Shown here one piece after another: positions 1 through 20,335 of a stretch of 20,335 nt of DNA. Below the pieces are notes generated by a model. That model was not told the DNA's origin. It made no database searches and saw nothing but the letters and a program-made list of their open reading frames with translations. Made by a program: the position numbers and the translations under genes. The DNA is from a virus (taxonomy: Duplodnaviria; Heunggongvirae; Uroviricota; Caudoviricetes): IMG/VR virus record IMGVR_UViG_2698536518_000010. One strand, given 5' to 3'. Within the stretch, counting starts at the first letter, position 1. The number at the start of each line of letters is the position of its first letter.

Positions 1-1731
1 TTAGCCTGAGATATATTCATCCGCTGCGTTCTTGATTATTTTTGACCTAACATTTTTAATGTACGGTATTTTTTTCAGATCATCCCTCGAACAGTGAACG
101 ATATCACCCACTTTAGGATAGGTTTCTTTTATTCGGTCGCATATTGCGTTACTAATTGACAAGCAACTAACCGGATCATCAAGAAGTTGTCCTACAATTG
201 ACCTTGTTGGTACAGGTGTCCCACACTTAGGACAAAACTTCGCATCTCCAGGTAACTCAGCGGAACAAGTTTGACACTCATCAGCTGATTCTTTCAATTT
301 TTCTAAAAAACGCTCTAATTCAGAATCTGCTGCGCCAAATTCTTTATAATCAGCGAGAGATAATAGTGTTATTATCTCCCCGAACTTATTAGATACGAAT
401 GCTTTTTCAGTGAAAAGTAATGATAAATTAACCATGTAGCGCTGACCCGATTTTCGATTAGACATCTTCACGGACCCTTGCTTGGAAAGAACACCAGAAT
501 AACAAAGCAAATCTAGAGACAATCTAAGATTTGGAGAAATAACGGGAGGAAGAACAAAAAAAGCAGATTGGGTTTGAGTCTTTTTCTCTCTGTTATTTTT
601 CAATCTAAGCTCAGGGATAATACACTCCCTAAGAATATCAAGTCCAATGCGAACATGGTGAGAATACTTAGGTAATCGTTTTGAAAGCCCTAAATGATAA
701 GGTAATAATTCTTGATTGACATAATCCTGAGTGCAAGTTAAAAGATCTCTTTCAGTATAACCTTTCTCATATACTTTATTAAATAAATGGAGAAATGCTC
801 TAGGGTTTCCGGATGAAAGATGAATACATTGATCTAGCAAATCACCTTTAGCCAATATTCTCTTTTTTGCTGCTCCTTGTGTGACCCGTTTATCTAATAG
901 ATCACGATATAAACGTCGTGTTCGTTCCCGCCCAATATTTCCAGTTTCGTATCCTCCGAGGTTTATCATCATGGCATCTTGACCAACTTCAAAATTTTTA
1001 CCATACGATGTAATTGACGGATATACAGCCGCCTTAACTGCAATTTTACCGCCATGAAGCAATTTAAATATTTCGAAGAATATTTCCTGCTGTTCTGGTA
1101 TAAAGGTATGAGCAGCCTCATCAAATAAAAAAACAATTCTATTAAGTTGGTATTCTTGAATTATCTCCTTGATGATGTCATTTACATAACTTATATCATT
1201 AACCTTATCTAAAAAATCCTCTCCAATTTCATTCAACAATTTATCTGAAGAAGGATCTCTTGATAACCTTTGAAGCAGATGAATTTTAGATTGTAGAGCA
1301 TCTTTCATTCCAGTTATAGTTTTAATCCCAAAAATTCTTTGAAATGGATCACTGCTATTATTGTCACGAATGACATCTAAAAATATCAACTTTTCGTACA
1401 AAGCTTGTAGTAACTTAGCGCTTACCCATATCTGAAATGCATTTTTATTGTCAGCTTTAACCCCTTCCAGCAAAGTACTGGTTTTGAAATTAACATATAC
1501 CCCCACAATCTTTTTAACAGGAAAATCACTATCTAATTCAGCTTCTGCCGCTCTTAGAAGCATAGACTTTCCAATTCCTCTGGCACCCTGAATCAGATGA
1601 GAGCCCGCTATTTTTAGTTTTGCTACAACATCTTTTTCAAACTCACCAAGAACAGCCAGTTGTTTGACCTGTTTCAACTCAAGATCTTCGGTACGTGCTG
1701 CATGTAATAACTCAGTGTCTAACATAGACAT
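1..1731 (-). CDS. P-loop NTPase (AAA_16/STAND-like motifs) with C-terminal zinc ribbon and basic tail; downstream gene of a candidate defence cassette
   Basis: 576-aa ORF. Walker A GARGIGKS (codons at about 1564-1587), Walker B-like VFLFDEAAH, CxxC-x10-CxxC ribbon CQTCSAELPGDAKFCPKCG (about 220-276). TAA stop at 1-3. Start ATG overlaps the upstream stop (TAATG, 1729-1733). AT-rich codon usage. Family is by motif only. Confidence 0.75.
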   Translation of the reverse strand: MSMLDTELLHAARTEDLELKQVKQLAVLGEFEKDVVAKLKIAGSHLIQGARGIGKSMLLRAAEAELDSDFPVKKIVGVYVNFKTSTLLEGVKADNKNAFQIWVSAKLLQALYEKLIFLDVIRDNNSSDPFQRIFGIKTITGMKDALQSKIHLLQRLSRDPSSDKLLNEIGEDFLDKVNDISYVNDIIKEIIQEYQLNRIVFLFDEAAHTFIPEQQEIFFEIFKLLHGGKIAVKAAVYPSITSYGKNFEVGQDAMMINLGGYETGNIGRERTRRLYRDLLDKRVTQGAAKKRILAKGDLLDQCIHLSSGNPRAFLHLFNKVYEKGYTERDLLTCTQDYVNQELLPYHLGLSKRLPKYSHHVRIGLDILRECIIPELRLKNNREKKTQTQSAFFVLPPVISPNLRLSLDLLCYSGVLSKQGSVKMSNRKSGQRYMVNLSLLFTEKAFVSNKFGEIITLLSLADYKEFGAADSELERFLEKLKESADECQTCSAELPGDAKFCPKCGTPVPTRSIVGQLLDDPVSCLSISNAICDRIKETYPKVGDIVHCSRDDLKKIPYIKNVRSKIIKNAADEYISG

Positions 1732-2420
1732 TATAAAACTACCTCACTAGATTTAGGAAATGAAGATAGCACTTCTTTTCTTATCTTATGACGAACAATA
1801 TTGGAATTAATTATCATACCCAAAACAACCTCAGCCAGACCTATGAACCTCTCCCAATCTTCACTTTCAAAAGTGAACTTATTAGGCAAATCAGTTTCAA
1901 ATGAGGTTATTTTTCCATGAACGATATCACTTAATTGTCCATAAATTTTCTGTGCTCTTCTCATATCAATAACACATACTTTCCCTCCTATCTTCTCATT
2001 TTCTGTGAAGTAGTCTATATAGCCTTGATTTGTTATATGCTTCAACATATCACTGAAACTTAAGTCTTCATCATGATTTTTCCAAGAATATACAACATGA
2101 GGCATATCCCAAAGATAAATAGATGCGACACCTAGTTCCAAAACTCTCCTTAGAACAATATTAGCTGGTTTATCTATGGCACAGGCAGAAAGATATAAAG
2201 AAGATGACGTATCAGCAATAATCTCACTAAAAATTTTAATACAAACATCATGATGAACTGATGTTTTCTTTTTATTCAAAATTTCAGCAATCGTGTTAAG
2301 AGTGAAAATTGAGATAATTACTTTATCTAATTTTTTATCTTGTATGCCCTGCCATTCACGAAAGTTACTATTGAACTTATCGCTTAGCATATTAATTATC
2401 TCAGTAGGTGATTTGTTCAT
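1731..2420 (-). CDS. Hypothetical 229-aa protein, upstream partner of the NTPase (possible effector); no recognisable motif
   Basis: 229-aa ORF with stop overlapping the NTPase start by 1 nt (translational coupling). AT-rich. Preceded by AT-rich intergenic region 2421-2520 with AAGGGA upstream of the ATG. Confidence 0.65.
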   Translation of the reverse strand: MNKSPTEIINMLSDKFNSNFREWQGIQDKKLDKVIISIFTLNTIAEILNKKKTSVHHDVCIKIFSEIIADTSSSLYLSACAIDKPANIVLRRVLELGVASIYLWDMPHVVYSWKNHDEDLSFSDMLKHITNQGYIDYFTENEKIGGKVCVIDMRRAQKIYGQLSDIVHGKITSFETDLPNKFTFESEDWERFIGLAEVVLGMIINSNIVRHKIRKEVLSSFPKSSEVVL

Positions 2421-7407: not shown

Positions 7408-9213
7408 TTATGTTCTGTCGTTAATCCCTGTAGCTGCTGGCAACCAGCCATCAGCATCATCATCTAACAGAACATTTGTTATCACTCGCCCTTTATCCGG
7501 GCCTTTAGTGCATTTAGCCCGCTTATACTCCTTTCCGTATTCCGCCATAGCTCCTGGCATATCAGTACCAAAGCGTGTCAGTGATACTGGTTTTCCCAGG
7601 CCATGCGCTGACATATAGGCTAAATAAGCATGATACAGGTATCGCCTCGGGCTAAATGGCACTATTTCCGCATTGCCCACCATCATTCCTTCACATTTAA
7701 CCAACGACATCAGATAGCCGCAAAAGTCCACCAGTGAATCACCTTCGCGCTTTATCAACAGCGCTTCTTCTGATTTTTGCTGCTCATAAAGTAGTCTTTT
7801 AGCTTCGTCCTGGTCGGTAAATCGTGTTAGCAAATGGCGAATCACTACCGCCAGTTCGCCTTCTATCTTTTCCGCCAGCATGGGATCGCGTTCGTTCTCC
7901 GGTACGACCTCAGAGAAATTAAATATCACCCTACGACGCGAGATCCCCCCGCTTCGGTCACTGAATGACATGGCGTTATTGTTTACCGCAAGCACTACTG
8001 CCGGAATACGTGTGGAGTAGGGGGCTTTATGTTTCGGATCAATTGCCACCTTGTCGCCGCCAGTAATTGCCTTAATTCCTGCACCATCGCCAGCGTAGCG
8101 AGTCATATCCGGCATGATAATCAGCGAAAAGCCAACTACTAACGCGCGTTCCCTTGCGTCTTCCAGAGCCTTCATGCTTGCCGATACTGTGTTGGCCTTA
8201 CCCGCCAGCATGGTACAAATCTCCGCCATCACACTTTTACCGCTTCCGCCCGGCCCCGTTACCTCAAGGAATAACTGCCAGTCGTACCGGTTCGCCAGTA
8301 CCATGAATAATGCCGCCAGTACGCGATCCGCTTTACGAGCATTATCCGCCACCGAACGACGCAACCACTTCCAGAAATTCGGCGCATGTGTTGCCAGCGT
8401 TTCCCCCTCTTCTGGCGGGCTGAACGGTAATTCACTGGCATTTAACAACCAGTCATTTTTGTTGTGTTCCCGAAAATTTCCTGTCCTGATATCAAAAACA
8501 CCGTTACTGAACCCAATAAGATTTCTGTCCGCTCCCCCCATAACAGGTAGACTCAATTTCATTGTCTCTACGGCAAATTTAATGGCGTTTTGCGAATAAC
8601 TAATTTCGGCATCAATAAAAATCTTCGCCATAGACCGCTGGAGTTCCTTATCAGATACAGGCTCCCAAACAATTCCGTTGTAATGGTGAACTACATCAGA
8701 ATCATCATTTATCGCCAGTGCTCCTCCATAATGTTCAAGTAACACTTCCCCTCTCTGGCTGGCTCCCATCTGATTTAATGCAGGCTTGGGTAGACCACTA
8801 TTTTTTGTAGCTAATTTCATCACTGAAACTTCCCCGTGCTCAGCCTGTTCGCGGATCCGTTGCAGGTAGTCGCGCCAGTTCTCCGGTTCCTGGTCGGTGA
8901 TACCTTTGTATAATTTCGCCTCCTGTACGCCAGCCAGCGCCAGCTTTTCAGCGATAGTATTGATCTGGATTGGCTCTATCTCCCCCGCGATATAGACACG
9001 CGCAAAACGGCGTTTCTCGTCAATAATGCGGATATTCGCCAGGTCTGCCAGTTGCTTTGGCCCCAGGTAAACAGGAGGCACGTTATCGCCGTGTTTTCGT
9101 CCTTCACTTTCAATCCAGTGTTGAGCATGGGCGTAAGCATCCGTCCCGGCAAAAATGATTACCTCAGTGAATTTATCCTTCGGCTGATATTTTAGACTCG
9201 GTGCGTTTTTCAC
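7408..9213 (-). CDS. Replicative primase/helicase, P4 alpha-like (SF3 helicase P-loop GPGGSGKS)
   Basis: 601-aa ORF. Walker A VTGPGGSGKSV and Walker B-like LIIMPDM. Start overlaps upstream gene (ATGA). Followed by the iteron region. Confidence 0.85.
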   Translation of the reverse strand: MKNAPSLKYQPKDKFTEVIIFAGTDAYAHAQHWIESEGRKHGDNVPPVYLGPKQLADLANIRIIDEKRRFARVYIAGEIEPIQINTIAEKLALAGVQEAKLYKGITDQEPENWRDYLQRIREQAEHGEVSVMKLATKNSGLPKPALNQMGASQRGEVLLEHYGGALAINDDSDVVHHYNGIVWEPVSDKELQRSMAKIFIDAEISYSQNAIKFAVETMKLSLPVMGGADRNLIGFSNGVFDIRTGNFREHNKNDWLLNASELPFSPPEEGETLATHAPNFWKWLRRSVADNARKADRVLAALFMVLANRYDWQLFLEVTGPGGSGKSVMAEICTMLAGKANTVSASMKALEDARERALVVGFSLIIMPDMTRYAGDGAGIKAITGGDKVAIDPKHKAPYSTRIPAVVLAVNNNAMSFSDRSGGISRRRVIFNFSEVVPENERDPMLAEKIEGELAVVIRHLLTRFTDQDEAKRLLYEQQKSEEALLIKREGDSLVDFCGYLMSLVKCEGMMVGNAEIVPFSPRRYLYHAYLAYMSAHGLGKPVSLTRFGTDMPGAMAEYGKEYKRAKCTKGPDKGRVITNVLLDDDADGWLPAATGINDRT

Positions 9214-10289: not shown

Positions 10290-10506
10290 GGTGCACCTCC
10301 TGCACATCAGCCATGATAATTTTTCCGGCCTTATCCAGTGCCTGATCGGCTTTTAGCTGCACAAATGCTAAATAATGGGAGATGCATTCTGATTCTCTGG
10401 CTGCGTGTTTATGCGCCACACCAGCGATAGCAGAAATCTCAATAAGTGAATCCATCAGCGTTTTGATAGCGTCTACCGCTGCATCAGGCCATGTTGCATT
10501 ACACAT
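10282..10506 (-). CDS. Hypothetical protein (74 aa)
   Basis: ORF with ATGTGTAA start/stop overlap with the upstream 67-aa gene. Confidence 0.4.
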   Translation of the reverse strand: MCNATWPDAAVDAIKTLMDSLIEISAIAGVAHKHAARESECISHYLAFVQLKADQALDKAGKIIMADVQEVHHA

Positions 10507-10702
10507 GTTCCACCTCCTGGCGAATACGGGCTGCGAATACCATCACGCAGCCATCAGGAGATTGCTGGCGTGCTTCCTGTTCGCTGGTGGCCTCGATGTG
10601 AATTACGCGCGGTTGTGCCGTGCTCAGGGCGATAAAACGCCAGATGTATTTATTCAGGTTGTGCGAGTCCCGCCCTTGCGGGTGTGTGGTATGATTTCTC
10701 AT
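10499..10702 (-). CDS. Hypothetical protein (67 aa), first gene of the leftward operon
   Basis: C-terminal part of the 435-codon ORF-track frame. ATG at 10702 preceded by GAGGT Shine-Dalgarno. Lies just downstream of the operator cluster. Confidence 0.45.
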   Translation of the reverse strand: MRNHTTHPQGRDSHNLNKYIWRFIALSTAQPRVIHIEATSEQEARQQSPDGCVMVFAARIRQEVEHV

Positions 10703-10798
10703 AGCTACCTCGATACTCTTGCTATCGTTGGTGGTTAGACGCCCTGCATGTGTGCCACCACTGCGGGGCGTTGTCGTTTCTGCACCTTGCATCAACAA

Positions 10799-10853
10799 GG
10801 TGTTGAACACCAATTTAAGCCTAGGTGTTAAACACGTCAAGTGTTGAACACTT
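10799..10853. promoter_or_regulatory. Three copies of an 11-bp perfect palindrome GTGTT(G/A)AACAC (10800-10810, 10825-10835, 10841-10851); candidate operator cluster in a divergent promoter region
   Basis: Read directly. Third copy overlaps a TTGAAC -35-like hexamer with CATACT 17 bp downstream. Sits between the leftward operon and the rightward small RHH gene. Confidence 0.6.
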
Positions 10854-10901
10854 ATTTTTTTTCCTGCATACTGCATTTGTTTTTTGTAAGGGGTACACAA
10901 C

Positions 10902-11081
10902 ATGGCGACAAAAGCAGTAAACGCAAAATCACAAACAGTTGCGGCAAGGGTTCCGCATGAAGTTATGAACAATGTTGAGGCGGTAAAAATGCCTGGTGAA
11001 AGTACAGGGCAGTTTGTAACAGCAGCATTAAAGCGAGAAGTTGAATACCGCCAGCGCCGCAAGGCCAAAGAACAGGAGTAA
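10902..11081 (+). CDS. Ribbon-helix-helix (Arc/CopG-like) small DNA-binding protein, 59 aa (below ORF-track cutoff)
   Basis: ATG at 10902 with AAGGGG upstream. Translation MATKAVNAKSQTVAARVPHEVMNNVEAVKMPGESTGQFVTAALKREVEYRQRRKAKEQE fits a beta-strand/helix/helix pattern. Confidence 0.45.
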   Translation: MATKAVNAKSQTVAARVPHEVMNNVEAVKMPGESTGQFVTAALKREVEYRQRRKAKEQE

Positions 11082-11798
11082 CCATCACCAGCGCCGTGGT
11101 GTGAGGAACTACGGTGCATCGTTTTACAGGGCTGCGCCATGACCAACAAAGAATCAACCAATACACCATCACCGGCACGGAAAAGACAGCGCAGAAAGAT
11201 AGCGTACGAGCATGAGTCAAACAGATTCGCGCCCTGTGCGTTTATCCTTGAGAAATTCCTTAAAGAGTACAGGCGCACAAAAATGGGGTCGCATACCTGG
11301 AAAACATCGCGGCATGGCAATGTTAAAGAGCAGGAATAGCCCACCAGCAAGCCAGCATATTCACCATAATGACCCTCAGTTAAACATAGAGTCATTGGTG
11401 CAAAGCTGACACATTGCCCACCAGCCGCAAATCTGGCATTGTTGGCGATGCGTTCAAGTATGTAGCTTTCCCACTGGCGGCCCTCTGCGGTCGCCTTTGT
11501 TTTATCCAGAACGAAATCAGACATCAGATTGATCAGCACCTGGCGACCTGACAAAATCGCATCAGTCGCGCCACCAGCAAAATTTTTTGCTTTCCGGACA
11601 GTGTGACCAACGACATTTTGCAGCAAAATATTCTGCATTTCTGGCGTGCTGTAGTAACGGTGATCAGCGCCTTCACTCTGTGCGACCACAACGCTATAAT
11701 CTGCCTCGTAGACAGTAAGCAATATGGCGCAGTAGGCTATTCGTTCACAAAGGCGCTCCGGCAACGGGGCGCTTTCTCTTTTTGTAACGGTCAGAGCG

Positions 11799-12599
11799 TT
11801 ACACATGGCTGTTTTCCTCCATGCGACGGGCTAACCAACGCTGCGAAAGACGAATTAATTCAGCCTTCCGCTGGTGGTAGTCCTGGCCTAACTCAATCAG
11901 CGTGATATTGCTCTGCTCAAGGTAAGAAAGGTGCTCAAGCTGCAACGTGCTCATGTGGTCGCGTGGTTCGCCTGTAATGCCGTTCGCCAGTGCCCACTGT
12001 TTTGCAGTCATGCCACCCAGTACGATACGCGCCAGCATGTTCGCTTCCGTGGTGTAGTGGTGCTGGAGTGTGTTTTTACCCAGTTCAGCCCGGTACGCCT
12101 CCAGCGCGGCACACATTGGCTTAAAGTAGCTGGCAACTGTGATACGGGCTTTCAGTTCCCGGCGTAACGCTGCGGAACGAACAGGCGCAACCTTGTGTAG
12201 CTCCTCCTCGCATTTGATAAAGTACTGGCGAACGGCGCGGCCCTGTTCGGTACGTTCGACCATCGCCAGTTCTTTCGCCATGTTCACTGTGATGATGTAC
12301 TCAAGAGCGGTTTGCTGGCGAGATTTTGCGCTCACCGGATCGGGTCGGCTCAAATATTCAACAACCTCATAATCCACGCCTTCCGTGAACCCGTATTCTT
12401 CAATGCGCCCCTTGATCCACGAACGGAAAACGCGCCCTACACCTAACGCCTTATGTAACGCTCTGGCGCTAACAATAGTGGTTTCACTCCCGCCAATAAC
12501 GCCGGAAATAATCGGGATAATTTCGCCGAAATTTTGCAGATTCTGGTTTTCAGGCCGAACGAAGCCCCGCCCCTGTACGGGCGTTTTTGGAAATTTCAT
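11799..12599 (-). CDS. Phage antirepressor-like protein (ANT/KilAC-type motif)
   Basis: 266-aa ORF. Segment ITVNMAKELAMVERTEQGRAVRQYFI resembles the conserved antirepressor core as I recall it. Confidence 0.6.
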   Translation of the reverse strand: MKFPKTPVQGRGFVRPENQNLQNFGEIIPIISGVIGGSETTIVSARALHKALGVGRVFRSWIKGRIEEYGFTEGVDYEVVEYLSRPDPVSAKSRQQTALEYIITVNMAKELAMVERTEQGRAVRQYFIKCEEELHKVAPVRSAALRRELKARITVASYFKPMCAALEAYRAELGKNTLQHHYTTEANMLARIVLGGMTAKQWALANGITGEPRDHMSTLQLEHLSYLEQSNITLIELGQDYHQRKAELIRLSQRWLARRMEENSHV

Positions 12600-12676
12600 A
12601 AAAACTCCTGCTATCGAATTAAGTTACTTTTATTTGCTGGTGGATAGCTGGGGGAAATAGCCCCGTAGCCATTTAA

Positions 12677-12874
12677 TCAGGTAGCTGTTCCGCGTGATTC
12701 CGCAATACGCTGATTAATCCACTCGTCAATTTCACTCTCAACGAAAGCAATAGCTCGCGAGCCAATTTTAACTGATGCAGGAAATTTACCTTGCCCCATA
12801 AGGCGATAAATCCATGCCTTGCTATATCCAGTTCTACGCTGAACTTCTGTTAAACGAATAAGCGTATTTGACAT
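12677..12874 (-). CDS. alpA: AlpA/Vis-family transcriptional regulator / excisionase-like protein
   Basis: 65-aa ORF MSNTLIRLTEVQRRTGYSKAWIYRLMGQGKFPASVKIGSRAIAFVESEIDEWI, typical AlpA-type HTH. Located two genes from the integrase. Confidence 0.85.
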   Translation of the reverse strand: MSNTLIRLTEVQRRTGYSKAWIYRLMGQGKFPASVKIGSRAIAFVESEIDEWINQRIAESRGTAT

Positions 12875-12943
12875 ATATTTACCTCATAACGTCTACTCAA
12901 TTTGACGAGGTAATCCTGGCACAGAAATAACGAATATTTTCAT

Positions 12944-13086
12944 ACCCTCAGGCCTAATGGTTACCGGAAGGAAATTAACCCTAAGGGTGATGGTAATCGG
13001 GAGGAAATCTACCCTAAGGGTGATGGTAAAATTGACGGGGAAGATAAAAAAATACCCTCAGGGTAACAGTAAATCACCCTCAGGGT
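12944..13086. promoter_or_regulatory. Repeated palindrome ACCCT(A/C)AGGGT (12978-12988, 13011-13021, 13054-13064, 13076-13086, plus half-site near 12944-12952) upstream of alpA
   Basis: Read directly. First two copies are followed by GATGGTAA. Lies between the stop of the 267-aa gene and the alpA start. Confidence 0.55.
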
Positions 13087-13101
13087 ATGCGGTATGGTGC
13101 G

Positions 13102-13905
13102 TTAATCCGGCTTTGCGTTCTTTTGGCTGTTGTCTCGGTTAATAGGGCAGGCAGTCCTCTCTATGAGCGTTGCAAGTGCATTACTTGCCCCCCACTGCTT
13201 AAGCTCCCTGGTTATCGCTTCTTGATTTCCCCTAGTGGCAAAATCATTTTCTGGATCGTAATTGGCCCACTCTCTGTTTCTAATCTCAATAGCCTTAGCT
13301 AATGGGTCTTTATCCCAGTATTTATATAAGTGTATCGGGCGCTCTTGCTCTAACTGCTCTATCCTTGCCCTTAACTCTGCGTTTTCTTTTTCCAGCATTG
13401 CGATTTGGGATAATAAATCATCCTCTGTACGCAACTCTTTCTTTTCAATATCGCGTCCTTGTGCCTCGTCATTTTCAGAAGAGTTAGCGCCTTCCAGCTT
13501 CGTTAACGCGTCAAGGACATCGGGAAAAATTGCGAAAATTTCACCCCTTATAAATCCAATGTTCTCAAATTCGGGATCTTCCCAATAACCGGACACCAGA
13601 AAACCATTTTCATCCCTCTCACCAGGTAAACAACCACGTTTCCGAACCGCATTCAGATTTCTATAAAGAACATCATAATCAAATTCATCCCGATACGGGT
13701 TACAAAAAGATTCCAACAGCTTAAATTCATTTACTGTGTACAGGCGGATATGTTCTCCGCTTATTCTCCTGAGTATCCAAGTTATGACATCTGAAACATC
13801 ATAATCATCACCAGCGACCTTAAGCACGACCTCAAGAAATTCACGTAAAGAAATAAAATCTTTTTTGTATTCGTTTAATTCGGCATGAATATCAATCATA
13901 CGCAC
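13102..13905 (-). CDS. Hypothetical 267-aa protein with coiled-coil segment, between integrase and alpA
   Basis: ORF with heptad-like stretch LLSQIAMLEKENAELRARIEQLEQE. AT-richer than neighbours. No recognisable catalytic motif. Confidence 0.65.
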   Translation of the reverse strand: MRMIDIHAELNEYKKDFISLREFLEVVLKVAGDDYDVSDVITWILRRISGEHIRLYTVNEFKLLESFCNPYRDEFDYDVLYRNLNAVRKRGCLPGERDENGFLVSGYWEDPEFENIGFIRGEIFAIFPDVLDALTKLEGANSSENDEAQGRDIEKKELRTEDDLLSQIAMLEKENAELRARIEQLEQERPIHLYKYWDKDPLAKAIEIRNREWANYDPENDFATRGNQEAITRELKQWGASNALATLIERTACPINRDNSQKNAKPD

Positions 13906-14027
13906 ACCTCAGCGTCCTCTACTGTAGTGGCTGTACCAGTCCGTCGAGGTGTACGGATTTTCGGGAGCGACCCTAGACACAGCCTTTTCTTTCGTCGCTC
14001 AAAGTCTACTACTGTATACGCAACCAG

Positions 14028-15242
14028 TCATCCACATTTTCCGAACTTGCCATGCACCACGTTACCGCCATGTTCGAGCGAATCCATATAGTCGGCGTAC
14101 CACTGGAGCATCTCGCGCCGCCCGTCCAGATATTGCGCATGATTGTACGTGCCACGAATTGAGTTCTTATCAACGTGTGCAAGCTGCGTTTCTATCCACG
14201 CGGTGTTATAGCCCTGCTCATGTAAAATCGTGCTCATGGTGTGCCGGAATCCATGACCAGTAACCTTTCCGTTATAGCCGATGCGTTTAAATACTTGGTT
14301 TATGCTAGCCTCGCTCATTGTTTTCCTTGGATCATTACGGCCGGGAAACATAAGCGGATAATTACCAGTTAATTCTTTAATCTGCCCAATAAGAGAAAGA
14401 GCCTGCTTAGACAAAGGCACCACATGAGGGCGACGCATTTTCATCCGTGAAGCAGGTATCTCCCAGATAGCCTTGTTGAGATCGATTTCATCCCATAATG
14501 CACCGCGCAGTTCGCCAGTTCGCAAACCAGTGATAATCAGTAGACGAGCCGCCATAACAACCAATGCACTTCCTGAGTAACTGGACAATGCCTTGAAAAA
14601 ATCAGGCAATTCTTTGGCTGTGAGGAAAGGATAATGATTAGATTCATGGCCTTGCATCGCGCTAGTAAGATCTGGGGCAGGGTTATACTCTGCGCGACCA
14701 GTGACTATTGCATAGCGGAAAACTTCCCCGCACCGCTGCCTCACTTTTTTGGCTTTTTCTGTAGCACCGCGCCCCTCGATGCGTCGCAGCACATTCAGAA
14801 GTTCAAGTGGTTTGATTTCGGCGATTGGTTTTTTGCCAATGTAAGGGAACACATCTTTGTTGAAGGCTTCGAGGATATCTGAAGCATAACCAGCAGACCA
14901 TTTTTTTAATTTGCTGCTGTGCCACTCAAGGGCAATATCTTTGAAGGTATTGTTTAACTGCGTTTCCCGGGCAATCTTTTCCTCTCGTTTCGCTTCCATC
15001 GGATCGATACCCCCAGCGATACCCCTTTTAGCTTCTTCACGTTTTGCACGAGCATCAGCCAAGGTAACTTCAGGATACACACCTAGTGCTAACAGCTTCT
15101 CTTTACCAGCTACACGATATTTAAAGCGCCAGTATTTTCCTCCACTAGGTTTTACCAGGAGATACAGACCACCACCATCAGCCAGCTTGTAAGCCTTCTC
15201 TTTTGGCTTGGCAGTGTCTATTTGACGGGCATTGAGTTTCAC
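14028..15242 (-). CDS. int: Tyrosine recombinase, P4-type integrase
   Basis: 404-aa ORF with GTG start preceded by GGAGGT. Catalytic signature residues (RTGELR, HGFRHT, SIRGTYNHAQY). Adjacent to the tRNA 3' fragment. Confidence 0.9.
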   Translation of the reverse strand: MKLNARQIDTAKPKEKAYKLADGGGLYLLVKPSGGKYWRFKYRVAGKEKLLALGVYPEVTLADARAKREEAKRGIAGGIDPMEAKREEKIARETQLNNTFKDIALEWHSSKLKKWSAGYASDILEAFNKDVFPYIGKKPIAEIKPLELLNVLRRIEGRGATEKAKKVRQRCGEVFRYAIVTGRAEYNPAPDLTSAMQGHESNHYPFLTAKELPDFFKALSSYSGSALVVMAARLLIITGLRTGELRGALWDEIDLNKAIWEIPASRMKMRRPHVVPLSKQALSLIGQIKELTGNYPLMFPGRNDPRKTMSEASINQVFKRIGYNGKVTGHGFRHTMSTILHEQGYNTAWIETQLAHVDKNSIRGTYNHAQYLDGRREMLQWYADYMDSLEHGGNVVHGKFGKCG

Positions 15243-16030: not shown

Positions 16031-16106
16031 CCCTTAAGTTCCTAGCCGCTTATCTATAACTATGGAAAAATGTTAACCCTGACTGTATGCTAACAAAGGG
16101 ATGTAT

Positions 16107-17315
16107 ATGTCGGTTTTTCATAACTGGCTGCTTGATATCGCAAGCGGGAATTACTTTATCTACATCAAACGCCTTTCTGCAAACGACACTGGCGCAACAG
16201 GTGGCCATCAGGTCGGACTTTATATCCCCTCAAATATCGTTGAAAAGCTTTTTCCATCTATCAATCATACTCGCGAACTGAACCCTTCAGTCTTCCTTAC
16301 TGCGCATGTATCATCCCATGATTGCCCTGATACCCAAGCACGCGCAATTTATTACAACAACCGTTATTTTGGTAAGACCCGAAACGAAAAAAGAATTACG
16401 CGCTGGGGGAGAGGAAGTCCATTACAGAACCCTGAAAATACAGGAGCTCTCACAATTCTTGCTTTCAGGTTAAACGAACAGAACACTGACTGTTCCGAGG
16501 TAGATATATGGGTCTGCGTCAATCCCGATGAAGAGGATATCATCGAGTCTGCTATTGGCGAAATCATACCTGGAACCCTAATTTCCGGCCCTGCCGGACA
16601 AATTTTGGGCGGATTATCTCTTCAGCAAACTCCAGTAAATCATAAATATGTTATTCCTGAAGACTGGAAGAAGCGTTTTCCTTCTGGAAACGAAATTATT
16701 CAATATGCTGCTGGCCATTATGCTAAAAACTCCAAGGATCCAGATGAGCAACTGATTGACCGTCGGCGTGTCGAGTATGATATTTTTCTACTCGTCGAGG
16801 AATTACATGTTCTTGATATTATTAAGAAAGGATTCGATTCTGTAGATGAGTTTATTGCATTAGCCAACTCTGTCAGTAATCGACGTAAATCAAGGGCAGG
16901 CAAATCACTTGAACTTCACCTAGAGAAGCTTTTTATCGAGCACGGACTACGGCATTTCTCCACTCAGGCAGTTACTGAAGGTAATAAAAAACCAGATTTC
17001 CTGTTTCCTTCAGCAGAGGCATATCATAACGTTGAATTTCCTGTAGAAAACTTACGTATGCTGGCAGTAAAGACCACCTGCAAAGATCGCTGGCGTCAGA
17101 TACTGAATGAAGCAGATAAAATCCATCAGGTACATTTATTTACACTGCAAGAAGGTGTTTCTTCAGCACAATACCGAGAAATGAAAGATGCGGGTGTCAG
17201 ACTCGTTGTACCATCAACTTTACATAAAAAATACCCAGAAGCAGTTAGAGAAGAATTAATAACGCTCGGAGCATTCATTACTGAGCTGATAGAGCTTTAC
17301 GCTGAACTATCATAG
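16107..17315 (+). CDS. Type II restriction endonuclease, EcoRII family (expected CCWGG specificity)
   Basis: Protein closely resembles EcoRII as I recall it across its length (MSVFHNWLLDI..., RLSANDTGATGGHQVGLYIP, ...KTTCKDRWRQILNEADKIHQVHLFTLQEG). AAAGGG Shine-Dalgarno supports the ATG at 16107 over the ORF-track 16101. Confidence 0.85.
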   Translation: MSVFHNWLLDIASGNYFIYIKRLSANDTGATGGHQVGLYIPSNIVEKLFPSINHTRELNPSVFLTAHVSSHDCPDTQARAIYYNNRYFGKTRNEKRITRWGRGSPLQNPENTGALTILAFRLNEQNTDCSEVDIWVCVNPDEEDIIESAIGEIIPGTLISGPAGQILGGLSLQQTPVNHKYVIPEDWKKRFPSGNEIIQYAAGHYAKNSKDPDEQLIDRRRVEYDIFLLVEELHVLDIIKKGFDSVDEFIALANSVSNRRKSRAGKSLELHLEKLFIEHGLRHFSTQAVTEGNKKPDFLFPSAEAYHNVEFPVENLRMLAVKTTCKDRWRQILNEADKIHQVHLFTLQEGVSSAQYREMKDAGVRLVVPSTLHKKYPEAVREELITLGAFITELIELYAELS

Positions 17316-17320
17316 GCTGA

Positions 17321-17343
17321 CTCCCGGCTTAAAAGGCCGGGAG
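17321..17343. terminator. Hairpin between the convergent R and M genes (CTCCCGGC-TTAAAAG-GCCGGGAG)
   Basis: Perfect 8-bp stem read directly. No flanking U-tract, so terminator function is inferred only from position. Confidence 0.4.
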
Positions 17344-17349
17344 GTGTTC

Positions 17350-18783
17350 TCAAGGCTGCCCAGTCTTACCAGCATCAGCAGAAACAGCTTTGAGGATATA
17401 GGGTTCCAGAAGTCTGGCAACAGCTTCAAATACTGGCACCACAACTGAGTTACCGAACTGCCGATATGACTGAGTATCTGAAACCGGAATACGGAATGGT
17501 TTCCCTCCAGGTTTTTCAAATCCCATAAGGCGTGCGCACTCTCGGGGAGTCAGCCTGCGTGGTCGACGAGCCTGATTACTCTCATTCATAAAGTCAGCCT
17601 CTCCCGTTGCCATATCCCAACCACGATCAATAAGAATTTCTGATCCGTCTTTGTGATATCTGGCAGAAAGTGTGCGTGCAATGCTTTCCTTATTCTCAGG
17701 ATTGACCAACCCAAAGCCAAAACCATTCCCCTTGGCTGCATGCTTTTTGGCGTAGTTATAAAGGTACTCCCATAGTTTTGGCGTAAGTATATATTTACTG
17801 TCGACTACAGGCTCCAGCAATTCACCAAATGATGGGCGGTGTTCCGGATAAAAACGACTGATATCACGCAAGGTAAACCCCTTGTGAATATTCAGATCTC
17901 GTCTAAATCCGACCAGAACAATGCGTTCACGATGCTGAGGCAAAAAATGCTTCCCATCGATAATCTTTGGATCGTTTTTTCCCATTTCTGCAGCATCGGC
18001 AACTTCGTAGCCCAGCTCGTCAAGGGTCTCCATAATGACTTTGAAAGTTTTACCCTTATCATGGCTCTTCAGATTTTTGACATTTTCCAGCACAAAAATT
18101 GCCGGTTTTTTTGCTCGTATAATACGTGCCACGTCAAAAAAAAGTGTTCCTTGTGCTTCACATTCAAAACCATGCGCACGGCCAAGTGAGTTTTTCTTAC
18201 TAACACCAGCAAGACTAAATGGCTGGCACGGGAACCCCGCAAGAAGCACATCATGATCCGGCACATGCTCATCAATATATGCATAAGCATCCGTTTCCAA
18301 TACATCGGTTTTATCACTCAACGTGACTTCCCGAATATCGAGATTGAATTTATGCACCTGTTCATCGTTAAACCAGTTGGCCTTGTATGTACGCACAGCA
18401 TCTTTATTCCATTCACTGGTAAAAACACACTGGCCTCCAATAGCCTCAAAACCTTTTCGTATCCCTCCAATTCCAGCAAATAAGTCAATGAAGCGGAAAG
18501 CATATTCCGGATGGTTTGCAGGTGGTTCTGGTAGCATCTTACGCAGAAGAGACTCTTCTACTGACGTCAACGATTTTGGTAAACACTTGCCATTAATCCA
18601 GCGGTTAATGGTTTCACGGCTCCACTCATTTTTTCCGACTTTTCTCAGTAATTCAGCCACATACTTCTGATCATAGATTTCCAGCACTTTCTCGATAAGC
18701 TTTTTATCATTTTCCTGTCGCAGCTTTTCTTCCGCCTCGGCTTCCTTCAGCAGATGCTGTGCCAACACTTCAAATTCAGACAT
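17350..18783 (-). CDS. DNA cytosine-5 methyltransferase, Dcm/M.EcoRII family
   Basis: Motifs [10 protein letters not shown] (I), GFPCQPFS (IV), ENVKNL (VI), QFGNSV (X). High similarity by recollection to E. coli Dcm. GGAGG Shine-Dalgarno supports the ATG at 18783 (477 aa) over the ORF-track 18825. Confidence 0.9.
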
Positions 18784-19200
18784 AATTCCTCCAAGGGGTC
18801 TAATGGGTGAAACTCTATCACTCATTCAACCCAGAAGGAAATGTTTTGTCTGGATATTTAAACAGTGACTACAACGTAATCTAGCACTAGTGATGCTTTG
18901 TTAGGCATAGAGAATCATTCTATATACGACTAATGACAGAAAAACAGCAGACAAGTAGTTTGCTCATAAATTAACGCATACTACGTGCCTACGGTTTTCG
19001 AGACCGGTCCAATCATCAAACGAAACATAAAATTAATTCACACTATGAGGAAAAGTATCTTTTTTTACTATGTAAATTCAAAGGATTAGCCTCATTTACC
19101 CGATAGTTTTCTCAACACTACTGGTTGTGAGCCCTTGCAATGTTCATTAATATACGTCTCACAAATAATTCATAGATATTGCAAAATGGATATTACTGAG

Positions 19201-19743: not shown

Positions 19744-19786
19744 AACCGCAGCACGATCTTCTTGCATACGACGTGCTACGGTTTCA
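19744..19786. repeat. About 40-bp imperfect-hairpin element, copy B, abutting the invertase stop codon
   Basis: See copy A. Homology ends at the invertase stop codon (tca at 19784-19786). Confidence 0.6.
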
Positions 19787-20335
19787 TTTATCTCCGACCG
19801 GAAACTTCTTATACAGTGTCGATATACCAACATCATAGATGATCGCCACCTTCTGGCGAGGAACGCCTGATGCAATTAATCGTCCGGCCTGCTCCCATTG
19901 TTCTGGTGTAAGTTTGGGGCGACGTCCACCAATTCGTCCCTGTGCGCGAGCTGCTTCCAGTCCAGCTTTTGTTCGTTCAACAATCAGTTCACGCTCCATT
20001 TCAGCCAGGGCACCCATCACATGAAAGAAAAAGCGCCCCATTGGGGTACTGGTATCAATAGCATCCGTCAGGCTGCGAAAATTAACGCCACGTTCGCGCA
20101 ACTCCTCAACCAGAATGACCAGATGCCGCATACTGCGCCCCAGCCGATCCAGTTTCCAGACAACCAGAGTGTCACCTGCCGATAATGTCCTGAGCAGTTT
20201 TTTCAGTCCCGGCCTTTCGGACTTTGTACCGCTTATCTTGTCTTCAAAAATCAGCTCGCATCCTGCACAGTTCAGCGCATTACGTTGTAGATCTGTGTTC
20301 TGGTCATTTGTTGACACACGTACATAGCCAATAAG
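19784..20335 (-). CDS. pin: Serine recombinase, Hin/Gin/Pin-family DNA invertase (5' end cut by window edge; GTG at 20317 is internal)
   Basis: Frame stays open to the window edge and encodes LIGYVRVSTNDQ (catalytic Ser region) upstream of the ORF-track start. C-terminal HTH (VAIIYDVGISTLYKK). Strong recalled similarity to Gin/Pin. Confidence 0.88.
   Translation of the reverse strand, partial: LIGYVRVSTNDQNTDLQRNALNCAGCELIFEDKISGTKSERPGLKKLLRTLSAGDTLVVWKLDRLGRSMRHLVILVEELRERGVNFRSLTDAIDTSTPMGRFFFHVMGALAEMERELIVERTKAGLEAARAQGRIGGRRPKLTPEQWEQAGRLIASGVPRQKVAIIYDVGISTLYKKFPVGDK

What the first reader, a model, noticed from the sequence alone, without database searches (positions are those of the whole stretch)
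12944..13086. Four to five ACCCTNAGGGT palindromes upstream of alpA
Seen: repeated 11-bp palindrome with conserved GATGGTAA flank on two copies, filling the gap between the 267-aa gene and alpA. Inference: operator array for the alpA promoter, bound by AlpA itself, the 267-aa protein or a helper-phage factor. The ORF-track frame 12957-13142 over these repeats is probably not coding.
Basis: partly seen in the sequence, partly recalled or inferred. Interest (0 to 1): 0.45.

Follow-up and report, generated by a model that had tools for sequence, protein, structure and literature searches.

The report
Conserved palindrome array upstream of alpA
The repeated 11-bp palindromes are real, are kept in diverged relatives of this phage satellite, and always accompany an uncharacterised upstream gene rather than AlpA, so they are most likely the DNA sites through which that protein controls the satellite's master switch gene alpA.

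Summary
There are four perfect ACCCTNAGGGT sites (12978, 13011, 13054, 13076; 0.04 expected by chance) and a degenerate fifth (12944). They lie in the 227-bp gap between the 267-aa gene and alpA of an E. coli phage-inducible chromosomal island (PICI).

In more than 20 diverged lineages the spacers cannot be aligned. Yet 2-5 copies of the palindrome, or close 5-1-5 variants, persist at fixed distances from the alpA start (-80, -114, about -157, -180, -212).

The array tracks the upstream gene, not AlpA:
- Every array-bearing locus encodes a protein with the same unannotated about 70-aa C-terminal domain after a coiled coil. This holds even where AlpA's helix-turn-helix (HTH) is unrelated.
- Islands whose AlpA has an identical HTH but that lack this gene have no sites.
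- The EcCIMP1 helper phage Kapi1 has no site.

Best reading: an operator array read by the 267-aa-family protein. Whether it represses or activates is unresolved; I lean towards repression. DNA binding is inferred only: there is no fold match and the protein is acidic. In this window the distal site pair also forms a terminator hairpin (-25 kcal/mol, followed by U6). This gives a testable candidate for the unknown control of alpA induction in Gram-negative PICIs.

The parts
12944..12954 (.). Promoter-proximal degenerate palindrome (ACCCTCAGGCC on the + strand; GGCCTGAGGGT in the alpA sense), starting 80 bp upstream of the alpA ATG
   Evidence: 2 mismatches. A degenerate copy sits at the same position (-79/-80) in most relatives.
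12978..12988 (.). Perfect palindrome ACCCTAAGGGT (-114 from the alpA ATG), the most widely conserved position
13011..13021 (.). Perfect palindrome ACCCTAAGGGT (-147), created by the 33-bp tandem duplication
   Evidence: Absent in genomes with one unit fewer.
13054..13064 (.). Perfect palindrome ACCCTCAGGGT (-190), 3' arm of the terminator-like hairpin
13076..13086 (.). Perfect palindrome ACCCTCAGGGT (-212), 5' arm of the terminator-like hairpin
12957..13022 (.). Two 33-bp tandem units carrying a palindrome plus the GATGGTAA flank; copy number is polymorphic
   Evidence: There are 1-3 units among E. coli genomes.
13046..13088 (-). Hairpin formed by the distal palindrome pair, followed by a U run; likely intrinsic terminator of the int/267-aa transcript in this lineage
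   Evidence: RNA fold -25 kcal/mol, z = -6.1. Terminator scan. The T run is not conserved in diverged loci.
13102..13905 (-). 267-aa gene (p267), the candidate reader of the array: confident N-terminal domain, linker, coiled coil, conserved C-terminal domain
   Evidence: No Pfam or PHROG match.
13135..13350 (-). Conserved about 70-aa C-terminal four-helix domain of p267 (residues about 186-257), the family signature
   Evidence: HMM search finds 78 clusters, with the domain always C-terminal. Alignment. AF2 pLDDT 91. No fold match.
13342..13425 (-). Coiled coil (residues 161-188), probable dimerisation element
   Evidence: AF2 helix 161-188. Only leucine-zipper-like PDB sequence matches.
12677..12874 (-). 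alpA, the regulated gene (master activator of Gram-negative PICIs)
   Evidence: Pfam Phage_AlpA 2.4e-19. Literature.
12913..12921 (-). Conserved TG-n-nAnnAT (TGCCAGGAT), an extended -10-like element. It implies a start site near 12906 and puts the proximal palindrome centre near -43.
   Evidence: Kept at 80% or more of 20 diverged loci (consensus line of the alignment). This is an inference; no mapped start site exists.
13916..13983 (-). Rfam int-alpA RNA motif, 10 nt upstream of the p267 start codon
   Evidence: It is in the same position before p267-family genes in 11 other loci.

Best explanation
The palindromes are an operator array for the alpA promoter. It is read by the protein encoded just upstream, p267. 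This protein belongs to an uncharacterised family with a variable N-terminal part, a coiled coil and a conserved about 70-aa C-terminal domain.

Proposed mechanism: dimers held by the coiled coil each occupy one 11-bp dyad. Sites spaced at multiples of about 11 bp allow cooperative occupancy from about -212 to -80 relative to the alpA ATG. The weak promoter-proximal site overlaps the core promoter region.

I think the most likely outcome is repression. The array would clamp alpA off while the island is quiescent, and the terminator made by the distal pair would block read-through from int/p267. A helper-phage product acting on the variable N-terminal part would then release it. AlpA's known positive feedback would do the rest.

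Shown: the sites, their conservation and fixed positions, and their exclusive co-occurrence with the p267 family.
Inferred: DNA binding by p267, the sign of regulation, and the phage trigger.

The confidence given (0.35) is for this full statement including repression.
For: 1. Four perfect sites against 0.04 expected, all in the p267-alpA gap.
2. About 40 related viral-contig loci hold sites only in that gap.
3. In diverged loci (AlpA 74-85% identical, p267 homologues 34-44%) the spacers are unalignable, yet 2-5 sites persist. They sit at conserved distances from the ATG. In a 20-locus alignment the ACCCT.A..GT columns are conserved while the flanks are not.
4. The C-terminal-domain family (78 clusters among 1.84 billion representatives, domain always at the C-terminus) lies immediately upstream of an alpA-family gene in every context examined. 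This includes distant cfPICI-like elements.
5. Their intergenic regions carry the same or related dyads: TACCC-N3-GGGTA twice, 43 bp apart, in L206; ACCGTGAGGGT/ACCCTCACGGT in L207; ACTATNATAGT in L204.
6. Double dissociation from AlpA. Loci with an identical AlpA HTH but no p267 domain (L123, L134, L135 = EcCIMP1) have zero sites, even with a relaxed motif. L206 and L207 have unrelated AlpA HTHs but keep the dyads. The AlpA of array-free L134 is 88% identical to that of array-bearing L172, closer than many pairs of array-bearing loci, which go down to 69%.
7. A coiled coil fits a two-fold symmetric reader.
8. Site centres are in phase at an 11-bp period (R = 0.96; the period was chosen after the fact).
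9. The literature shows PICI alpA promoters are helper-induced and autoactivated, with no cis sites defined.
Against: 2. The family is acidic (median pI 5.4; this protein pI 4.7, net charge -18). The C-terminal domain is about neutral.
3. The last helix of the C-terminal domain differs strongly between this protein (SNALATLIERT) and close relatives (TSRQAASIELV) that have the same DNA motif. So the reading surface is unidentified.
4. All array-bearing loci may be one deep lineage in which gene, array and alpA are inherited together. Co-occurrence is therefore not fully independent evidence.
5. The sign is unresolved. If the conserved extended -10-like element is the promoter, the proximal site centre is near -43, a classic activator position.
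6. The experimentally studied islands EcCICFT073 and EcCIMP1 are helper-inducible without this gene.
Confidence: 0.35

Rival explanations
1. Same reader, opposite sign. p267 is a phage-sensing activator. Bound at the proximal site centred near -43 of a promoter that lacks a -35 element, it recruits RNA polymerase to alpA once its N-terminal part detects a helper product. The upstream sites increase occupancy.
For: - The conserved TG-n-nAnnAT element is kept at 80% or more of 20 diverged loci. It places the proximal site centre near -43.
- No sigma-70 consensus promoter is found in 12500-13400.
- PICI alpA promoters are known to need activation.
Against: - The transcription start is not mapped. 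The other -10 candidate (GAAAAT, 12936-12941) would put the site inside the spacer, which is a repressor geometry.
- AlpA already provides activation.
- A satellite with positive feedback on alpA needs an off-clamp more than a second activator.
Confidence: 0.2
2. The palindromes are AlpA's own autoregulatory sites, since AlpA is a known positive autoregulator in PICIs.
For: - AlpA activates its own promoter in EcCICFT073 and probably in EcCIMP1.
- The sites lie upstream of alpA.
- Every array-bearing locus has an alpA gene.
Against: - L123, L134 and L135/EcCIMP1 have the identical AlpA HTH (EVQRRTGYSKAWIYRL) and no site.
- L206 and L207 have unrelated AlpA HTHs and keep the dyads.
- The AlpA tree mixes array-bearing and array-free loci.
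- From general knowledge: Xis/AlpA-type winged-helix monomers usually read direct repeats, not compact dyads.
Confidence: 0.1
3. The sites are read by a factor encoded elsewhere. Either a helper-phage transcription factor is captured by the satellite as its induction signal, or a host regulator is. p267 would be only a linked passenger gene.
For: - Helper phages induce PICI alpA promoters by an unidentified factor.
- p267 shows no DNA-binding fold and is acidic.
- The helper of this particular island is unknown.
Against: - Kapi1 has 0 sites at up to 1 mismatch.
- No record among 50,697 phage records resembles the array or encodes p267.
- In IMG/VR, all site pairs that lie next to an alpA gene also lie next to a p267 homologue; the remaining hits are metagenomic contigs with no homologue of the island's genes.
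- This reading does not explain why the array is absent from every island that lacks the p267 domain.
Confidence: 0.15
4. The repeats act only at the RNA level, as the terminator or 3' end structure of the p267 transcript, and have no protein reader.
For: - The distal pair folds into a hairpin of -25 kcal/mol (z = -6.1) followed by a U run.
- The terminator scan flags both distal copies.
- L203 has ATACCCTG-N10-CAGGGTAT followed by a T run.
Against: - The T run is missing in L128, L156 and L158.
- The -114 and -80 copies stand alone, far from any partner. As RNA they could form only 4-5 bp stems, yet they are the most position-conserved copies.
- The dyad sequence itself is conserved, rather than showing the compensatory changes expected of an RNA stem.
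Confidence: 0.05

Closest known systems
Stl master repressor and its operators in staphylococcal SaPIs (Gram-positive PICIs)
   Same: A satellite-encoded regulator next to int that would hold the induction module silent. A diversifying part could meet different helper-phage proteins. The function would couple the satellite cycle to the helper.
   Different: There is no sequence or fold similarity. The gene here is co-directional with its target, not divergent. The conserved part is C-terminal and has no recognisable HTH. Binding and derepression are untested. Fillol-Salom et al. 2018 state that a global repressor in Gram-negative PICIs is unclear.
alpA promoters of the Gram-negative PICIs EcCICFT073 and EcCIMP1
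   Same: Same island type and gene order (int, alpA, AntA/Bro zone, primase, PerC). alpA is the master activator. Its promoter is helper-induced and autoactivated.
   Different: Those islands lack the p267-family gene and the palindromes. EcCIMP1's 427-bp alpA upstream region has its own, unrelated triple repeat. This suggests at least two control architectures for near-identical AlpA proteins.
MqsA antitoxin operators (ACCT-N3-AGGT dyads); recalled from memory, not tested here
   Same: Compact 11-bp dyads with half-site centres only 6-7 bp apart, present in more than one copy in a promoter and read by a dimer.
   Different: MqsA is an XRE-type HTH protein unrelated to p267. The half-site differs (ACCT against ACCCT).
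Cooperative operator arrays of temperate-phage repressors (lambda OR/OL type)
   Same: Several dyads on one helical face, of graded strength, with the weakest next to the core promoter.
   Different: The spacing is 22-44 bp rather than adjacent 17-bp operators. The array extends over more than 130 bp upstream.
Rfam int-alpA RNA (RF02996)
   Same: A conserved element of the same int-alpA interval, found at 13916-13983.
   Different: It is a different element, about 830 bp upstream of the palindromes. It precedes the p267 gene, not alpA.

Membership tests
Gram-negative PICI (phage-inducible chromosomal island) | int, then alpA in the same orientation, followed by a Bro/AntA zone and a primase-type replication gene | tested here: met
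   Integrase 14028-15242, AlpA 12677-12874, AntA 11799-12599, D5_N primase 7408-9213, ProQ and PerC, all on the minus strand.
Gram-negative PICI (phage-inducible chromosomal island) | Integration next to a specific attachment site, often a tRNA gene | tested here: inconclusive
   There is no tRNA in the window. Near-identical islands abut tRNA-Thr or tRNA-Gly. In this window an EcoRII-like R-M pair follows int.
Gram-negative PICI (phage-inducible chromosomal island) | Induction, packaging and transfer by a helper phage | not testable with these tools
   Shown only for relatives with a different alpA module (EcCIMP1, EcCICFT073).
Protein-bound operator array | Sites conserved in sequence and position while the flanking DNA diverges | tested here: met
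Protein-bound operator array | An identified reader with a DNA-binding domain | tested here: inconclusive
   p267 co-occurs with the array everywhere. It has no Pfam match and no fold match and is acidic.
AlpA autoregulatory site | The motif follows the AlpA DNA-binding helix across islands | tested here: not met
   Identical HTH without sites. Unrelated HTH with sites. AlpA tree.
Intrinsic (Rho-independent) terminator | A stable GC-rich hairpin directly followed by a U run, downstream of a gene | tested here: met
   Distal pair: -25 kcal/mol, z = -6.1, then a U run, starting 14 nt after the p267 stop codon.
Intrinsic (Rho-independent) terminator | Terminator features account for all copies and are conserved in relatives | tested here: not met
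   The -114 and -80 copies are unpaired. The T run is absent in L128, L156 and L158.
Stl-type satellite master repressor system | A repressor with a recognisable HTH, divergently transcribed from the operon it controls | tested here: not met
   p267 is co-directional with alpA. No recognisable HTH family was found.
Stl-type satellite master repressor system | Derepression by direct binding of a helper-phage protein | not testable with these tools
   The only hint is the hypervariable N-terminal part against the conserved C-terminal part.
Replication-origin iterons | Repeats beside or inside the replication gene, flanking an AT-rich stretch | tested here: not met
   The array is 3.7 kb from the primase gene. 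It tracks p267/alpA, not the primase, which varies from 46 to 100% identity among array-bearing loci.

The most novel reading that the evidence does not exclude
The p267 family is a previously unrecognised phage-sensing master regulator of a large subset of Gram-negative PICIs and cfPICI-like satellites. Its hypervariable N-terminal part would recognise helper-phage proteins. A new type of small C-terminal DNA-binding domain would read the 5-1-5 dyad array and gate alpA. That would make it the Gram-negative functional counterpart of Stl, and would explain how such satellites choose their helpers.
Probability: 0.3. Interest if true: 0.75.

Novelty: new variant of a known kind. Interest (0 to 1): 0.55.

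Why it matters
How helper phages switch on alpA, the master activator of Gram-negative phage satellites, is still open. The inducer was 'under study' in 2018, and no cis elements were defined in the 2025 EcCIMP1 work.

This locus offers a defined, conserved cis element and a specific candidate trans factor. Both are present in about 140-150 of 5,426 complete E. coli genomes and in relatives from Salmonella, Citrobacter and beyond. The question therefore becomes testable with a reporter, a deletion and a gel shift.

The result also shows that near-identical AlpA proteins sit behind at least two unrelated promoter architectures. That bears on helper specificity and on engineering PICIs as delivery vehicles.

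Tried and rejected
2. Helper-phage sites: Kapi1 was fetched and scanned and has no site. The phage collection has no similar array and no p267 homologue.
3. AlpA as reader was rejected on the double dissociation.
4. AntA-like and YlcI/YnfO-like island proteins as readers: they are not detected in several array-bearing loci, for example L155 and L171.
6. PDB sequence search gave only leucine-zipper-like matches with E of about 0.1. The alignment to the Max/Myc basic region is not significant and I did not use it.
7. The search for related loci with single distant proteins and with the broad alignment failed. A narrower alignment worked.
8. K-12 CP4-57 YfjH, which lies between intA and alpA, is on the opposite strand and lacks the domain.
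9. A pure terminator reading was rejected for the array as a whole.
10. An SD-sequestering hairpin in the alpA leader is conserved as an inverted repeat, but its fold is not exceptional (z = 0.6). If the extended -10-like element is the promoter, its 5' arm may not be transcribed. Left open.
11. A literature search for the four motif strings found no bacterial paper.

Full report
**1. The observation**

The window carries exactly four perfect ACCCTNAGGGT sites, at 12978, 13011, 13054 and 13076. All lie within 109 bp. Shuffles give 0.04 sites on average and none of 100 reaches four. A fifth copy at 12944-12954 has two mismatches.

The GATGGTAA flank on two copies is part of a 33-bp tandem duplication (12957-12989 / 12990-13022).

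All genes here run on the minus strand:
- integrase, 15242-14028
- a 267-aa ORF with no Pfam or PHROG match (p267), 13905-13102
- alpA, 12874-12677
- an AntA-like gene, then further on a D5-type primase, ProQ and PerC

The array fills the 227-bp p267-alpA gap. The + strand ORF 12957-13142 is not annotated in RefSeq and is not conserved.

**2. What the element is**

The region matches about 140-170 of 5,426 complete E. coli genomes. There it belongs to an island next to tRNA-Thr or tRNA-Gly. Gene content and order are those of a Gram-negative phage-inducible chromosomal island (PICI).

In such islands AlpA is the master activator. Its promoter is switched on by an unidentified helper-phage factor and by AlpA itself (Fillol-Salom 2018; Pick 2025 for EcCIMP1). 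No cis sites have been described.

EcCIMP1 itself is a relative with a different alpA module. It has no gene between int and alpA, no palindromes, and its own triple repeat.

**3. Conservation**

Among E. coli genomes the 33-bp unit varies in number, giving 3-5 perfect sites.

More telling are the diverged loci. These came from a pattern scan of viral contigs, from contexts of p267 homologues and from a domain-based scan.
- With AlpA at 74-85% identity and p267 homologues at 34-44%, the spacers no longer align. Yet 2-5 dyads remain.
- Their start positions relative to the alpA ATG are nearly fixed: -79/-80 (degenerate), -112 to -114, about -155 to -158, -178 to -180 and -210 to -212.
- In a 20-locus alignment of the proximal 140 bp, the ACCCT.A..GT columns stand out from unconserved flanks.
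- In about 40 loci of up to 14 kb, the sites occur only in this gap.
- In the window the centres are in phase for an 11-bp period (R = 0.96) but not for 10.5 bp (R = 0.42). The period was chosen after the fact.

This is the signature of selection on DNA sites.

**4. Who reads them: AlpA is disfavoured**

Three lines dissociate the array from AlpA.
- Islands whose AlpA has the identical helix-turn-helix (HTH) (EVQRRTGYSKAWIYRL) but a different or no gene after int (L123, L134, L135/EcCIMP1) have no site. This holds even under a relaxed motif.
- Distant elements with unrelated AlpA HTHs (L206, L207/208) keep the dyads. L206 has TACCCTCCGGGTA and TACCCGGAGGGTA 43 bp apart. L207 has ACCGTGAGGGT and ACCCTCACGGT.
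- AlpA of array-free L134 is 88% identical to AlpA of array-bearing L172. That is closer than many pairs of array-bearing loci, which go down to 69%.

**5. Who reads them: p267 is the common denominator**

p267 homologues share a nearly constant C-terminal about 70 aa after a coiled coil. The N-terminal part ranges from near-identical to unrelated, and total length from 152 to 283 aa.

A profile of the C-terminal part finds only 78 clusters among 1.84 billion representatives. The domain is always at the extreme C-terminus of proteins of 64-515 aa. None of 59 members has a Pfam domain.

Every context examined places the gene 120-260 bp upstream of an alpA-family gene. This includes cfPICI-like elements with TerL nearby.

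The domain is absent from the array-free islands, from K-12 CP4-57 and from phage Kapi1. AntA-like and YlcI/YnfO-like proteins are not always present.

Motif variants drift with the family. Pure ACCCT half-sites go with the TRGNQ loop type. Mixed ACCCT/ACTAT half-sites go with IPSQ types. ACTATNATAGT goes with an RPTQ type. This is suggestive only.

**6. Limits of that inference**

- The full AF2 model (pLDDT 72) shows a confident N-terminal domain, a disordered linker, a long helix at 161-188 and a C-terminal helical domain.
- The C-terminal domain alone models at pLDDT 91 as four helices.
- PDB sequence matches are leucine-zipper-like only.
- The protein is acidic (pI 4.7, net charge -18) and the C-terminal domain is neutral.
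- The last helix differs greatly between this protein and close relatives that share the same motif.

DNA binding is therefore an inference from synteny and co-occurrence. The array-bearing loci may be one deep lineage, so the co-occurrence counts are not independent.

**7. Helper or host factor**

Kapi1, the helper of EcCIMP1, has no site at up to 1 mismatch. No record of the phage collection resembles the array or encodes p267. In IMG/VR, every paired site next to an alpA gene also has a p267 homologue beside it. The helper of this island is unknown, so this reading is weakened but not excluded.

**8. RNA level**

On the alpA-sense strand the two distal copies pair with each other. They form a hairpin of -25 kcal/mol (z = -6.1) followed by a U run, starting 14 nt after the p267 stop codon. 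In this lineage the pair very probably terminates the int/p267 transcript and insulates alpA.

The T run is absent in several diverged loci. The best-conserved copies (-114, -80) are unpaired. Termination is therefore an added role, not the reason for the array.

**9. Mechanism and sign**

No sigma-70 consensus promoter is found. Across 20 diverged loci the best-conserved feature between the proximal site and the ATG is TG-n-nAnnAT (12921-12913), which is extended -10-like. It implies a start near 12906 and site centres near -43, -77, -110, -153 and -175.

The alternative -10 candidate (GAAAAT, 12941-12936) is not conserved in 6 of the 20 loci. It would put the proximal site in the spacer.

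The first geometry fits activation or -35 occlusion. The second fits repression. I favour repression on biological grounds. alpA has positive feedback and its runaway expression is toxic, so the island needs an off-clamp. The hypervariable N-terminal part would suit recognition of diverse phage proteins, as with Stl. This preference is weak.

**10. Comparison and novelty**

- In function this resembles the Stl/operator switch of Gram-positive PICIs and phage operator arrays.
- In site shape it resembles the compact MqsA dyads (recalled from memory).
- It is not a member of any of these families. There is no homology, the gene is co-directional with its target, and there is no recognisable HTH.

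The array and the protein family appear undescribed in the searchable literature. I rate it a new variant of a known kind, namely a satellite regulatory switch.

Approximate weights:
- 0.1 AlpA
- 0.15 an external factor
- 0.05 RNA-only
- the remainder unknown

Noticed in passing
window 13916-13983 (-); also L129, L132, L156, L158, L171, L201, L203, L204, L210, L217, L134: The Rfam int-alpA RNA motif (RF02996, 45.5 bits) ends 10 nt before the p267 start codon, not next to alpA. In 10 of 11 other p267-family loci scanned it again lies just upstream of the family gene or of the small ORF that precedes it, even in L201 where no integrase is nearby. In L134 it precedes a DUF6387 gene. It looks like the leader or promoter element of whatever gene follows int.
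   Followed up: partly
window 12882-12916 (-): An inverted repeat, TTACCTCGT / ATGAGGTAA, overlaps the alpA Shine-Dalgarno sequence. It is kept as CTCGTAA...TTACGAG in all diverged loci and with changed sequence in L123 (ATATACCTC/GAGGTATAT). It is either a translational hairpin or a DNA site, possibly AlpA's own. The RNA fold is not exceptional (z = 0.6).
   Followed up: partly
window 12913-12921 (-): TG-n-nAnnAT (TGCCAGGAT) is kept at 80% or more of 20 diverged loci (alignment consensus). It is a likely extended -10 element of alpA and predicts a start near 12906.
   Followed up: partly
window 16101-18825 and 19784-20317: An EcoRII-like restriction endonuclease (+ strand), a C5 cytosine methyltransferase (- strand) and a resolvase follow the integrase. 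The window has no tRNA gene, although near-identical islands abut tRNA-Thr or tRNA-Gly. The integration context of this copy is unexplained.
   Followed up: no
window 1-2420 (-): An ORC/CDC6-like AAA protein with a zinc ribbon (576 aa, running off the window) is followed by a 229-aa protein with no match. This may be cargo such as a defence system at the far end of the island.
   Followed up: no
window 10499-11806: The 435-aa minus-strand ORF is probably spurious. RefSeq annotates small genes here instead (YlcI/YnfO-like at 10902-11081 on the + strand, and Icd-like). Relatives carry C4 antisense and isrK RNAs in this zone, but none is detected in this window, even at E <= 0.1.
   Followed up: partly
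L135 2177-2603 / L137 (EcCIMP1 alpA upstream region): The experimentally used EcCIMP1 alpA promoter region has its own threefold repeat, a short hairpin followed by AATnGTTCTTTAA. It is unrelated to the palindromes here, although the AlpA HTH is identical.
   Followed up: no
L128 (E. coli JNU), L204, window 12944-12961: A recurrent 'long form' of the dyad has good outer half-sites 7-8 bp apart instead of 1 bp. Examples are ACCCTAATCCTTAGGGT, ACTATTATCCCTAATAGT and, at the promoter-proximal position, ACCATTAGGCCTGAGGGT. What this means for binding is unexplained.
   Followed up: no
L199 and L194 (metagenomic IMG/VR contigs): Unrelated viral contigs carry many ACCCTNAGGGT pairs (21 sites in 14 kb in L199) with no alpA or p267 homologue. 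The same dyad is apparently used as a dispersed repeat elsewhere.
   Followed up: no
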